64,000 nt of DNA, from the IMG/VR virus record IMGVR_UViG_3300032050_000029, positions 1 to 64,000 of that record. One strand, given 5' to 3'. The notes under the pieces were generated by a model. The model was not told where the DNA came from, made no database searches, and was given only the letters and a program-made list of their open reading frames with translations. Below are positions 1,298 to 1,386 of this stretch, piece by piece; the stretch's first letter is position 1, and every line of letters begins with the position of its first letter. The stretch is from an uncultured virus (IMG/VR IMGVR_UViG_3300032050_000029) (taxonomy: Duplodnaviria; Heunggongvirae; Uroviricota; Caudoviricetes). A program made the position numbers and the translations under genes.

Positions 1298-1386
1298 TGT
1301 GGGAGGCAGGGATCGAACCTATCGCGTCACGGTTAAGGGCCAACGTCTTGCCTCCTTAACTTGCTCTGCCACTGAGCTACTCCCAC
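1298..1386 (-). ncRNA. tRNA-like RNA with extended, non-canonical anticodon arm
   Basis: Acceptor stem GTGGGAG/CTCCCAC, D arm GCTC-AGTGGCA-GAGC, T loop GGTTCGATCCC; anticodon arm about 30 nt (GTTAAGG/CCTTAAC plus inner CAA-GACG-TTG) with no 7-nt loop. Confidence 0.75.

What the first reader, a model, noticed from the sequence alone, without database searches (positions are those of the whole stretch)
1298..1386. tRNA-shaped RNA with no anticodon loop, ending 2 nt before the bS21 start codon
Seen: a perfect 7-bp acceptor stem, canonical TAGCTCAG..GG..AGAGC D arm and GGTTCGATCC T loop. The anticodon arm is replaced by a helix of about 30 nt (GTTAAGG/CCTTAAC plus CAA-GACG-TTG) with no U33/7-nt loop, and the T stem pairs best with a 3-nt bulge. 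After the discriminator A comes C-T-ATG of rpsU. Known: RNase P and tRNA 3'-processing enzymes recognise the acceptor/T-arm half, and Bacteroidota bS21 helps occlude the anti-Shine-Dalgarno sequence. Inference: this is a tRNA mimic that could release a near-leaderless bS21 mRNA, or act as a decoy for anticodon nucleases, rather than a decoding tRNA.
Basis: partly seen in the sequence, partly recalled or inferred. Interest (0 to 1): 0.8.

Follow-up and report, generated by a model that had tools for sequence, protein, structure and literature searches.

The report
Phage tRNA look-alike without an anticodon
A large phage of Bacteroidota carries, right in front of its ribosomal protein bS21 gene, a conserved tRNA-shaped RNA whose anticodon loop is replaced by a long closed helix, so it probably serves as an RNA-cutting signal or a tRNA decoy rather than reading codons.

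Summary
On the minus strand, 1386..1298 folds into a cloverleaf with a perfect 7-bp acceptor stem, canonical D and T arms and a 29-nt closed helix where the anticodon arm should be. It ends 2 nt before the bS21 ATG.

It is not a decayed tRNA. I found 18 distinct relatives in viral and metagenome contigs. Their acceptor stems are 100% paired, with double changes at 5 of 7 pairs, and the outer 7 bp of the long arm covary.

The family has two forms:
- short arms with 5-, 6- or 8-nt loops, sitting in phage tRNA arrays;
- long arms, always behind two conserved hairpins and in front of bS21.

Its closest canonical tRNA is the phage's own tRNA-Phe(GAA).

More distant bS21 phages carry an ordinary tRNA-Gln or tRNA-Pro in the same slot, 13-43 nt upstream.

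My best reading is a non-decoding tRNA-derived RNA that RNase P and 3' enzymes cut out of a polycistronic transcript. This would free the bS21 mRNA. A trans-acting decoy role is the main rival.

The 2-nt leader is specific to this window; relatives have 13-17 nt. No processing has been shown. This is a new variant of a known kind, of moderate interest.

The parts
1298..1386 (-). tRNA-shaped RNA, 89 nt: acceptor 1386-1380 with 1305-1299, discriminator A at 1298
   Evidence: Sequence. Cloverleaf is the minimum-energy fold. Family model R1 scores it 91.7 bits. Acceptor stem is 100% paired in 18 distinct relatives, with double changes at 5 of 7 pairs.
1363..1377 (-). D arm (GCTC / AGTGGCA / GAGC) with G18 G19
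   Evidence: Invariant in alignment A1, but the pattern searches that found most relatives required this sequence.
1332..1360 (-). 29-nt closed arm in place of the anticodon arm: 7-bp outer helix GTTAAGG/CCTTAAC, bulged A, imperfect inner helix, GACG loop
   Evidence: The outer helix pairs in all sequences and shows GC/AT exchanges at 5 of its 7 pairs. The inner pair at columns 40-45 exchanges AT for GC.
1306..1331 (-). Variable loop and T arm: T loop TTCGATC at 1317-1311; T stem with an A.C mismatch or an ATA bulge
   Evidence: Rfam's alignment of a relative uses the bulged drawing. Compared with the phage's own tRNA-Phe.
1296..1297 (-). 2-nt spacer (C, T) between the discriminator and the bS21 ATG; relatives have 13-17 nt here
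1095..1295 (-). bS21 (rpsU) gene, 66 aa
   Evidence: Pfam PF01165, E 1.4e-9. All 80 best cellular relatives are Bacteroidota, mostly Saprospiraceae.
1392..1420 (-). Hairpin 2: 6-bp GC-rich stem, inner stem, GAAA loop, no T run. It ends 5 nt before the tRNA-like 5' end.
   Evidence: invariant stem in 8 long-arm loci. Two RNA-library contigs of run X6 end exactly at 1392, which is a weak hint only.
1421..1460 (-). Hairpin 1: outer stem CGTGT/ACACG enclosing TTATGGG-TAAG-CCCATAA
   Evidence: The inner stem shows compensatory changes in L051 and L044. Its interior is deleted in L043 while the outer stem is kept.
1387..1391 (-). Variable 4-5 nt linker; would be the RNase P leader
   Evidence: Its sequence differs between relatives (AACCT, AAACT, TTTAA, AACC, AATCT) while both flanks are conserved.
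1474..1647 (-). Small ORF with a lipoprotein-type signal peptide, upstream in the same module
   Evidence: translation. Conserved at 90-92% DNA identity in L001 and L002. No Pfam hit.
1690..1763 (-). tRNA-Gly(TCC), head of the conserved module
   Evidence: 100% identical in L001 and L002.
566..1036 (-). Polynucleotide kinase-phosphatase-type HAD phosphatase gene, directly downstream of bS21
   Evidence: Pfam HAD_PNKP, E 4.7e-29. Sits in the same position in long-arm relatives.

Best explanation
The element is a functional, non-decoding RNA derived from a tRNA, most likely a tRNA-Phe duplicate. It keeps the half of a tRNA that processing enzymes recognise: acceptor stem, T arm, D/T elbow and variable loop. 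Its anticodon arm has become a closed rod of about 12 bp.

It lies inside a same-strand block: tRNA-Gly, small lipoprotein ORF, two hairpins, tRNA-like, bS21, PNKP-type phosphatase. I found no promoter-like or terminator-like site between these parts.

Proposed mechanism (all steps inferred):
1. Host RNase P cuts at 1386/1387.
2. The upstream mRNA is left with a stable GAAA-capped hairpin at its 3' end.
3. A 3' enzyme, either RNase Z or trimming exonucleases, cuts after A1298.
4. This releases the bS21 mRNA from a -32 kcal/mol structure that otherwise sits 3 nt from its start codon.

The element would thus punctuate the transcript and make bS21 translation depend on processing. The excised 89-nt RNA may have a further role in trans.

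Shown: the structure, its conservation and covariation, and its position. Inferred: co-transcription, the cuts, and the effect on translation.
For: 1. Selection on the fold. In 18 distinct sequences, 93.1% of cells pair, against 83.7% in shuffles (0 of 500 reach the observed value) and 32-44% when partners are slid. The acceptor stem is 100% paired with double changes at 5 of 7 pairs. The arm's outer helix covaries. RNAalifold recovers the cloverleaf and both hairpins.

2. Not a decoder. There is no 7-nt loop with U33. The short-arm relatives have 5-, 6- or 8-nt loops. The phage has 26 canonical tRNAs including Phe(GAA) and Ala(TGC), plus a tmRNA.

3. The recognition half is intact. U8, A14, G18 G19, the T loop and a GTGAC variable loop are present. 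RNase P gauges the acceptor/T-arm and elbow (PMC4919913, listing and start of abstract only).

4. Slot evidence. Of the 80 best phage bS21 loci, 17 have a tRNA or this element ending 13-43 nt upstream: 3 long-arm elements, 3 tRNA-Pro, 11 tRNA-Gln. The other 63 have none. Only 2 of 80 cellular Bacteroidota rpsU loci have a tRNA within 300 nt upstream.

5. Module conservation. All 8 long-arm loci have hairpin 2 placed 4-5 nt upstream. The hairpin region is 96-98% identical between the window and L001/L002, where bS21 itself is 76-83% identical.

6. No sigma-70-like promoter or intrinsic terminator on the gene strand between 1763 and 1295.

7. Weak RNA hints. One RNA-library contig (X10, depth 2) runs unspliced from 1311 to 1461. 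Two X6 contigs end at 1392.
Against: - No processed ends were observed. The RNA data are low-depth Logan contigs from metatranscriptomes that may contain DNA.
- The family also sits inside tRNA arrays, followed by another tRNA (L020, L036, L052). It also occurs in a 90.9-kb phage fragment with no bS21. A bS21-specific role therefore cannot explain the family.
- An ordinary tRNA would punctuate equally well. This reading does not explain why a non-decoding copy with a long, covarying arm is kept.
- Most relatives have NATAAATA, resembling the T4 late promoter, inside the 14-nt spacer. bS21 may thus have its own promoter there.
- The promoter scan uses an E. coli-type consensus, not Bacteroidota or T4-type promoters.
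- The T-stem irregularity might impair RNase P or RNase Z.
- The invariance of the D, variable and T regions is partly imposed by the exact patterns used to find relatives.
Confidence: 0.45

Rival explanations
1. Trans-acting tRNA mimic. The excised RNA binds and titrates a host factor that recognises the tRNA body. Candidates are a tRNA-directed defence enzyme acting on the acceptor/T-arm half, or a processing or translation factor. The arm tip evolves fast because it is either irrelevant or under an arms race.
For: - The family is kept in tRNA arrays without bS21, so it has a value of its own.
- The arm tip and the short-arm loops are the most variable part, while the helices stay paired.
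- RNA-repair-type genes lie nearby: a HAD_PNKP phosphatase directly after bS21 in all long-arm loci that reach that far, a cREC_REC domain at 19924-20346, and a Metallophos gene at 18173-18847. This suggests the phage meets RNA-cutting defences.
- The irregular T stem may exclude the RNA from translation (inference).
Against: - No partner is identified.
- A decoy for anticodon nucleases should keep an anticodon loop, which this element lacks.
- No RNA ligase or kinase domain was found in the 122 kb available, though the record is only about 40% complete.
- Abundance of the RNA is unknown.
Confidence: 0.25
2. A real tRNA with an unconventional anticodon arm. Either the arm carries a 12-13-nt insert that is removed to give a 7-nt loop with anticodon GGC (as ARAGORN draws it), or expanded and contracted loops decode directly.
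For: - ARAGORN in intron mode calls tRNA-Ala(GGC) with a 12-nt intron.
- The same drawing gives GGC in 7 of the 8 long-arm variants and AGC in L054. Both are Ala anticodons.
- A PNKP-type healing enzyme is encoded next door.
- One short-arm member can be drawn with a 7-nt loop and is called Val(AAC).
Against: - The acceptor has G3-C70, not the G3:U70 that defines alanine identity (the identity rule is recalled).
- Position 37 would be C or T, and it covaries with the supposed intron.
- The arm has one 1-nt bulge and no bulge-helix-bulge motif.
- The short-arm relatives have no such loop, and their loops differ in length (5, 6 or 8 nt).
- The phage already has tRNA-Ala(TGC).
- The only RNA-library contig across the arm is unspliced, and no joint was reported there.
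- The discriminator varies: A, T or C.
Confidence: 0.08
3. cis-regulatory leader of bS21. The hairpins plus the tRNA-like structure bind bS21 or sense the translation state, and so control bS21 synthesis.
For: - Fixed position before bS21 in all 8 long-arm loci.
- The hairpin region is the best conserved non-tRNA stretch of the module.
- Flavobacterial rpsU is autoregulated through its leader (PMC9976891, listing and start of abstract only).
Against: - The short-arm relatives lack bS21.
- L054 has another ORF between the element and bS21.
- The hairpin region shows no significant likeness to the 3' end of a Saprospiraceae 16S rRNA. The local score is 17 against a shuffle mean of 14.2, and 43 of 300 shuffles do as well.
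Confidence: 0.07
4. A decaying tRNA pseudogene carried along passively.
For: - Low Rfam tRNA scores, 27-38 bits against 53-80 for neighbouring tRNAs.
- A T-stem defect.
- No anticodon loop.
Against: - Compensatory changes keep every helix, including the new arm.
- No member among 18 distinct sequences has a broken acceptor stem.
- The family persists across lineages whose acceptor stems differ at up to 6 of 7 pairs.
Confidence: 0.05

Closest known systems
t-elements of plant mitochondria (PMC1920247; abstract read)
   Same: tRNA-like structures inside transcripts, sitting at the 5' or 3' ends of mRNAs. The authors take them to be cis signals for RNase P and/or RNase Z. This element has the same position and architecture: an intact acceptor/T half, with the anticodon part not needed.
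   Different: Those are organellar and mostly degenerate. This one is a phage element with a fully canonical D/T core and a newly built, covarying 12-bp arm. Processing is not shown here.
mascRNA and the MALAT1 3' end (PMC8457004 and PMC11693755; listing and start of abstracts only)
   Same: A tRNA-like RNA is cut out by RNase P, and the upstream RNA's new 3' end is protected by a stable structure. Here a GAAA-capped hairpin ends 5 nt before the putative cut.
   Different: That system is eukaryotic and nuclear, with a triple helix rather than a hairpin, and mascRNA has a small anticodon arm. No homology is implied.
tRNA-like RNAs of murine gammaherpesvirus 68, which precede viral pre-miRNAs (recalled, no call)
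   Same: Viral tRNA look-alikes with defective anticodon arms that are not aminoacylated and whose 3' processing releases the downstream RNA.
   Different: Animal virus, pol III transcription, downstream miRNA hairpins rather than an mRNA.
Stable RNA species 1 and 2 (rnaC, rnaD) in the phage T4 tRNA cluster (recalled, no call; the search listed no paper on them)
   Same: A T4-type phage tRNA region encoding small stable RNAs that are not decoding tRNAs and have no known function. This phage is T4-like by its capsid, portal and terminase genes.
   Different: The T4 RNAs are longer and, as far as I recall, not cloverleaf-shaped.
Canonical tRNA-Phe(GAA), Rfam RF00005
   Same: It is the best canonical match of the family model: the phage's own tRNA-Phe scores 52.8 bits. 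It has the same D arm type, a 5-nt variable loop and the same T loop. The short-arm loop CTAAAA equals the Phe loop CTGAAAA minus one base.
   Different: No 7-nt anticodon loop, an irregular T stem, two bases between the D and anticodon stems, and Rfam scores at or below the cut-off.

Membership tests
Canonical decoding tRNA (Rfam RF00005) | 7-bp acceptor stem, 4-bp D stem with G18 G19, T loop TTCRANY | tested here: met
Canonical decoding tRNA (Rfam RF00005) | 5-bp anticodon stem closing a 7-nt loop with U33 and a purine at position 37 | tested here: not met
   The arm is a 29-nt closed helix with a 4-nt loop. Relatives have 5-, 6- or 8-nt loops or long arms. ARAGORN's forced drawings lack U33 or have a pyrimidine at 37.
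Canonical decoding tRNA (Rfam RF00005) | Score at or above the Rfam gathering cut-off (29 bits) | tested here: not met
   The window copy gives no hit at gathering threshold or at E<=10. The identical copy in L037 is not listed at E<=0.1. Of the 13 relatives scored, 12 reach 30.0-37.7 bits and one reaches 27.2.
Regular 5-bp T stem of a tRNA | Five uninterrupted pairs, 49-53 with 61-65 | tested here: not met
   Either an A.C mismatch at 49:65, present in 17 of 17 sequences that have a base there (L001 has T.C in the raw sequence), or a 3-nt ATA bulge.
tRNA-Ala (ARAGORN intron-mode call) | G3:U70 pair in the acceptor stem (identity rule recalled) | tested here: not met
   G3 pairs with C70 in the window and in all long-arm relatives.
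Intron-containing tRNA of the archaeal/eukaryal type | Bulge-helix-bulge motif at the splice sites (two 3-nt bulges around a 4-bp helix; definition recalled) | tested here: not met
   The arm has one 1-nt bulge and one mismatch. No spliced joint was seen in RNA-library contigs (weak).
tmRNA tRNA-like domain | Acceptor and T arm joined to a long helix leading to a tag reading frame; G3:U70 | tested here: not met
   ARAGORN finds the phage's tmRNA elsewhere, at genome position 73984-74365. This element is 89 nt, has a full D arm and has no tag frame.
tRNA-like processing signal (t-element type) | Intact acceptor/T-arm half located at an mRNA boundary on the gene strand | tested here: met
tRNA-like processing signal (t-element type) | Cleavage by RNase P at the 5' end and by RNase Z at the 3' end | not testable with these tools
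   Only contigs of RNA libraries were available. Two end at 1392 and one bridges the site.
Y RNA-like YrlA (RF02553) | Score at or above the gathering cut-off (69 bits) | tested here: not met
   The only hits are 26-27 bits, on the tRNA-Gly/element junction of two relatives. There is none in the window.

The most novel reading that the evidence does not exclude
The family is a phage-made tRNA decoy. It would be a tRNA-Phe duplicate that keeps a perfect tRNA body but has its anticodon arm sealed into a rod, so that it can never enter translation. After being cut out by RNase P it would accumulate and soak up a host enzyme that attacks or inspects tRNAs through the acceptor/T-arm half. The fast-changing arm tip would record an arms race. 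Its linkage to bS21 and a PNKP-type phosphatase would mark a phage 'translation protection' cassette.
Probability: 0.2. Interest if true: 0.85.

Novelty: new variant of a known kind. Interest (0 to 1): 0.55.

Why it matters
Phage tRNA genes are usually read as codon-supply or as replacements for tRNAs cut by host defences. This family keeps the tRNA body under clear selection but has given up the anticodon loop. That points to a use of the tRNA shape itself.

Two uses are plausible. One is a cutting mark that sets the ends of neighbouring mRNAs; here that neighbour is the mRNA of a phage ribosomal protein acting on Bacteroidota translation initiation. The other is a mimic aimed at a host tRNA-binding factor.

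The finding also matters for annotation. Default tRNA finders miss or misname these genes: ARAGORN calls them Ala, Pro, Ser, Val, Phe or '???'. Phage tRNA counts and anticodon tables from metagenomes therefore contain such non-decoders.

The recurrent 'single tRNA, about 14 nt, bS21' arrangement is a testable case of tRNA punctuation in a bacterial virus.

Tried and rejected
1. Intron reading. ARAGORN in intron mode calls Ala(GGC) with a 12-nt intron. Rejected because of G3-C70, a pyrimidine at position 37 that covaries with the 'intron', no bulge-helix-bulge motif, and short-arm relatives that lack any such loop.

2. ARAGORN's default calls on relatives (Ser(AGA) for L043/L044, Pro(AGG) for L054, Phe(AAA) for L027). 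The drawings have no U33, mismatched stems, or an unpaired 22-nt 'variable arm'.

3. Known RNA families. Rfam gives nothing but chance-level hits in 1200-1500.

4. Cultured and GenBank phages. blastn of the region and of a short-arm member found no match. The family pattern has no match in one genome per 185,579 prokaryote species.

5. Hairpins as a mimic of the 16S rRNA 3' end. The alignment to a Saprospiraceae 16S is no better than shuffles.

6. A target site complementary to the conserved 3' strand of the arm. Only the arm itself matches in the window, and the expected chance count is 0.76.

7. An eighth acceptor pair between -1 and 73. It is Watson-Crick in 15 of 19 family contexts, but also in 30 of 53 canonical tRNAs from the same loci, so it is not distinctive.

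8. SRP-hairpin lead from an earlier scan note. Rfam found no SRP-like match here.

9. RNA runs. All holders had small word shares, and only contigs could be laid. Stretches without cover (1114-1284 in all four runs) say nothing. No spliced joint lies in the element. The one joint reported (1473 to 1547, one X6 contig) lies in the lipoprotein ORF.

10. A second copy. There is none in the 122-kb record, and none upstream of the other 56 bS21 loci searched with model R1.

11. Literature. Full-text searches listed no paper describing this family or a tRNA-bS21 module. The bS21-phage paper PMC9723584 (passages read) describes a different gene context and does not mention an upstream tRNA. Its supplements were not opened.
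Full report
**What is there**

The finding lies on the minus strand. Read 5' to 3' from 1386 to 1298, the 89 nt give:
- a perfect 7-bp acceptor stem, GTGGGAG with CTCCCAC;
- T8 A9;
- a D arm, GCTC-AGTGGCA-GAGC;
- two A;
- a 29-nt arm at 1360-1332;
- GTGACGCGATAGG, then the T loop TTCGATC and CCTGC;
- the 3' acceptor strand and a discriminator A at 1298.

Two bases later (C, T) comes the ATG of a 66-aa ORF that matches Pfam Ribosomal_S21 at E 1.4e-9.

RNAfold returns this cloverleaf as the minimum-energy structure, -32.2 kcal/mol. 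The energy alone is unremarkable: z is -1.85, and 11 of 200 shuffles fold as well.

The arm consists of a 7-bp helix (GTTAAGG/CCTTAAC), a bulged A, an imperfect 5-position inner helix and a GACG loop. It has no 7-nt loop and no U33.

ARAGORN by default and Rfam at its gathering threshold both miss the element. Rfam's tRNA model gives no hit on the window copy even at E<=10.

**The genome**

The window is the first 64 kb of a 121,978-bp virus record that CheckV rates about 40% complete. It is a T4-like myovirus, with Gp23-type capsid, Gp20-type portal, T4-type terminase and sheath genes.

It carries 26 canonical tRNAs that cover all 20 amino acids, among them Phe(GAA) and Ala(TGC), plus a tmRNA.

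All 80 best cellular relatives of its bS21 are Bacteroidota, mostly Saprospiraceae.

The element is the last part of a same-strand block: tRNA-Leu, tRNA-Arg, small ORFs, tRNA-Gly(TCC), a small lipoprotein-like ORF, two hairpins, the tRNA-like element, bS21, and a PNKP-type HAD phosphatase at E 4.7e-29.

**Relatives**

A search with the bS21 protein found 15 viral loci:
- 4 carry the same long-arm element 14 nt upstream of bS21;
- 5 carry an ordinary tRNA there (1 Pro, 4 Gln);
- 6 carry none.

Pattern scans added more: 5 and 11 viral loci and 24 metagenome loci.

In all there are 18 distinct sequences, falling into two forms.
- Eight 'long-arm' variants have 29-30-nt arms.
- Ten 'short-arm' variants have a 5-6-bp stem closing a loop of 5 or 6 nt, or 8 nt if the closing pair is left open. 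These sit in phage tRNA arrays, often right after tRNA-Gly(TCC).

ARAGORN labels them '???', Phe(AAA), Val(AAC), Ser(AGA) or Pro(AGG). All these drawings are non-canonical.

Rfam's tRNA model gives family members 27.2-37.7 bits, while canonical tRNAs in the same loci score 53-80 bits.

No member was found in 50,697 deposited phage records. None was found in one genome for each of 185,579 prokaryote species.

**Selection on the fold**

I counted pairs on the 18-sequence alignment using the cloverleaf with the long arm.
- 93.1% of cells pair. Shuffles average 83.7%, and none of 500 reaches the observed value. With partners slid by 1-3 columns only 32-44% pair.
- The acceptor stem is paired in every sequence, with double changes at 5 of 7 pairs.
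- The arm's outer helix is paired in all sequences, with GC/AT exchanges at 5 of its 7 pairs. One intermediate G.T occurs in L054.
- In the inner helix, one pair is invariant, one is mostly unpaired, and one exchanges AT for GC.

The 3' strand of the inner helix is made of G and T, which can each pair with two partners. This explains why the 5' strand varies freely while the 3' strand stays fixed.

RNAalifold on the 8 long-arm loci recovers the same structure plus both upstream hairpins.

One caveat applies. The D, variable and T regions look invariant partly because my pattern searches required them. The acceptor and arm were not constrained by the searches.

A decaying pseudogene is not compatible with these counts.

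**Origin**

A covariance model of the family scores as follows:
- the window copy, 91.7 bits;
- a Phe-like tRNA with an 8-nt loop in another viral contig (L029), 67.2 bits;
- the phage's own tRNA-Phe(GAA), 52.8 bits, the best canonical tRNA.

The short-arm loop CTAAAA is the Phe loop CTGAAAA minus one base. The stretch GTGAC after the arm also matches the Phe variable loop GTGTC. That drawing keeps the usual core positions. The alternative drawing is a 9-nt variable region and an A.C mismatch. No sequence variation decides between the two.

**Why it is not a decoder**

- A rod of about 12 bp with a 4-6-nt loop cannot present an anticodon.
- Loop length is not conserved in the short-arm form.
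- The discriminator varies: A, T or C.
- The phage has a full canonical tRNA set.
- The intron drawing (Ala, GGC) fails on G3-C70, on a pyrimidine at position 37 that covaries with the supposed intron, and on the absence of a bulge-helix-bulge motif.

**Context argument for processing**

Among the 80 best phage bS21 loci of 437 confirmed, 17 have a tRNA or this element ending 13-43 nt upstream. These are 3 long-arm elements, 3 tRNA-Pro and 11 tRNA-Gln. In each case it is the only tRNA near the gene. The other 63 loci have none within 700 nt. Twenty-one of the 80 are near-duplicates; among the 59 distinct loci the count is 12.

Of 80 cellular Bacteroidota rpsU loci, 2 have a same-strand tRNA in the 300 nt upstream, at 39 and 62 nt.

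So in one clade of phage bS21 genes the slot just upstream holds a tRNA-shaped gene of changing identity. With 2-17 nt to the ATG there is hardly room for a separate promoter. The one exception is a NATAAATA motif inside the spacer of most long-arm relatives. It resembles the T4 late promoter (consensus recalled), and 14 of its 31 gene-strand copies in this genome lie 4-21 nt before an ORF start. This window has lost that motif through a 12-nt deletion.

All 8 long-arm loci have a GC-rich, GAAA-capped hairpin with no T run ending 4-5 nt before the element. The linker between them varies in sequence.

Identities between the window and L001/L002, which were found through the protein and so are unbiased for the RNA:

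| Region | Identity to L001 / L002 |
|---|---|
| tRNA-Gly | 100% / 100% |
| Hairpin region | 97.7% / 96.3% |
| tRNA-like element | 89.9% / 87.6% |
| bS21 | 83.1% / 76.1% |

In L002 the element's changes all lie in the arm, except one at the discriminator; L001 also differs at D-loop position 19, in the variable region/T stem and in the T loop.

No sigma-70-type promoter or intrinsic terminator lies on the gene strand between 1763 and 1295. The scan does not cover Bacteroidota or T4-type promoters.

**RNA data**

Only Logan contigs of metatranscriptomes with small word shares were available. Laid at 90% likeness, they show:
- one X10 contig (depth 2) running from 1311 to 1461, across the arm without any joint and across the putative RNase P site;
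- two X6 contigs (depths 3.8 and 8.4) both ending at 1392, the last base of hairpin 2;
- an X2 contig covering 1450-1663.

This is compatible with a precursor plus an upstream fragment trimmed back to the hairpin. But contigs cannot show ends reliably, and DNA may be present in these libraries. I count it as a weak hint only.

**Most likely mechanism**

Inferred from the anatomy and from what is known of RNase P, which gauges the acceptor/T-arm stack and the elbow (PMC4919913, listing only):
1. The block is transcribed as one RNA.
2. RNase P cuts before G1386.
3. The upstream mRNA keeps a protective 3' hairpin.
4. A 3' activity cuts after A1298, or after the following C.
5. The bS21 mRNA is freed from a stable structure that otherwise abuts its start codon.

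This is how plant mitochondrial t-elements are thought to act (PMC1920247, abstract). It also resembles the MALAT1/mascRNA arrangement (PMC8457004, PMC11693755, listings).

**What this reading does not explain**

It does not explain why a non-decoding copy with a long, covarying arm is kept. Nor does it explain why the short-arm form persists inside tRNA arrays and in a 90.9-kb phage fragment that has no bS21.

For that reason a trans-acting role is a serious rival: a mimic or decoy for a factor that reads the tRNA body. The RNA-repair-type genes nearby fit that rival, namely the PNKP phosphatase next to bS21, a cREC_REC domain and a Metallophos gene. A decoy for anticodon nucleases specifically fits poorly with the missing loop.

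**Verdict**

'tRNA mimic, not a decoder' holds. 'Near-leaderless bS21 mRNA' is a peculiarity of this genome. Processing and any decoy function remain untested.

It is a new variant of a known kind, namely tRNA-like processing signals and tRNA mimics. It forms a small family that I could not find in Rfam, in deposited phage genomes, or in the papers my searches listed.

Noticed in passing
window 1392-1473 (minus strand): Two conserved hairpins lie between the lipoprotein-like ORF and the tRNA-like element. They are 96-98% identical to relatives in which bS21 is 76-83% identical. The stem of hairpin 2 is CCTCCG/CGGAGG, an anti-SD-like strand paired to an SD-like strand, capped by GAAA. Hairpin 1 shows compensatory changes, and its interior is deleted in L043. 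Their own function is unknown.
   Followed up: partly
G000 genome 70803-74365 (outside the window; L057): A dense array of 22 tRNA genes followed by a tmRNA gene whose tag ends in ...ADYAVAA. Together with the 4 tRNAs in the window, this gives the phage a tRNA for every amino acid.
   Followed up: partly
window 566-1036, 18173-18847, 19924-20346 (all minus strand): RNA-repair-type genes: a HAD phosphatase of the polynucleotide kinase-phosphatase type directly after bS21, a calcineurin-like phosphoesterase, and a cyclic-phosphate-processing receiver domain (cREC_REC). No RNA ligase or kinase domain was seen in the 122 kb available.
   Followed up: partly
L001 1487-1500, L002 1487-1500, L043, L044, L051 (spacer before bS21): The 13-17-nt spacer of long-arm relatives contains AATAAATA, resembling the T4 late promoter (consensus recalled). 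The window has lost it through a 12-nt deletion. In G000, 14 of 31 gene-strand NATAAATA motifs lie 4-21 nt upstream of an ORF start.
   Followed up: partly
L029 393-467 (minus strand): Another viral contig carries a Phe-like tRNA with a regular T stem but an 8-nt anticodon loop, TCTGAAAA. ARAGORN calls its anticodon 'tgaa'. It is the second-best hit of the family model at 67.2 bits and may be an intermediate, or a quadruplet-type tRNA.
   Followed up: no
L007, L010-L013, L066-L089 (loci of phage bS21 relatives): A single tRNA-Gln(TTG) or tRNA-Pro(TGG) sits 13-43 nt upstream of bS21, and a short hairpin lies a few bases upstream of that tRNA in L007 and L010. This recurrent 'hairpin, tRNA, short AT-rich spacer, bS21' module is not mentioned in the bS21-phage paper passages I read.
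   Followed up: partly
window 1298-1387 and family loci: The base before the 5' end pairs with the discriminator in 15 of 19 family contexts (T-A, A-T, G-C). It also does so in 30 of 53 canonical tRNAs of the same loci, so this looks like a general habit of these phages' tRNA genes.
   Followed up: yes
window 5086-5159 (minus strand): tRNA-Ile with anticodon TAT, an uncommon way to read ATA, stands alone between protein genes.
   Followed up: no
window 34848-35963 and G000 64267-65148: There are two thymidylate-synthase-family genes in one phage. The first (371 aa) is much longer than the profile's 266 positions.
   Followed up: no
window 1474-1647 (minus strand): A 57-aa ORF with a lipoprotein-type signal (a hydrophobic stretch, then ...LASC) followed by a Thr/Asp/Ser-rich tail. 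It is conserved between tRNA-Gly and the hairpins in all long-arm loci and has no Pfam match.
   Followed up: no
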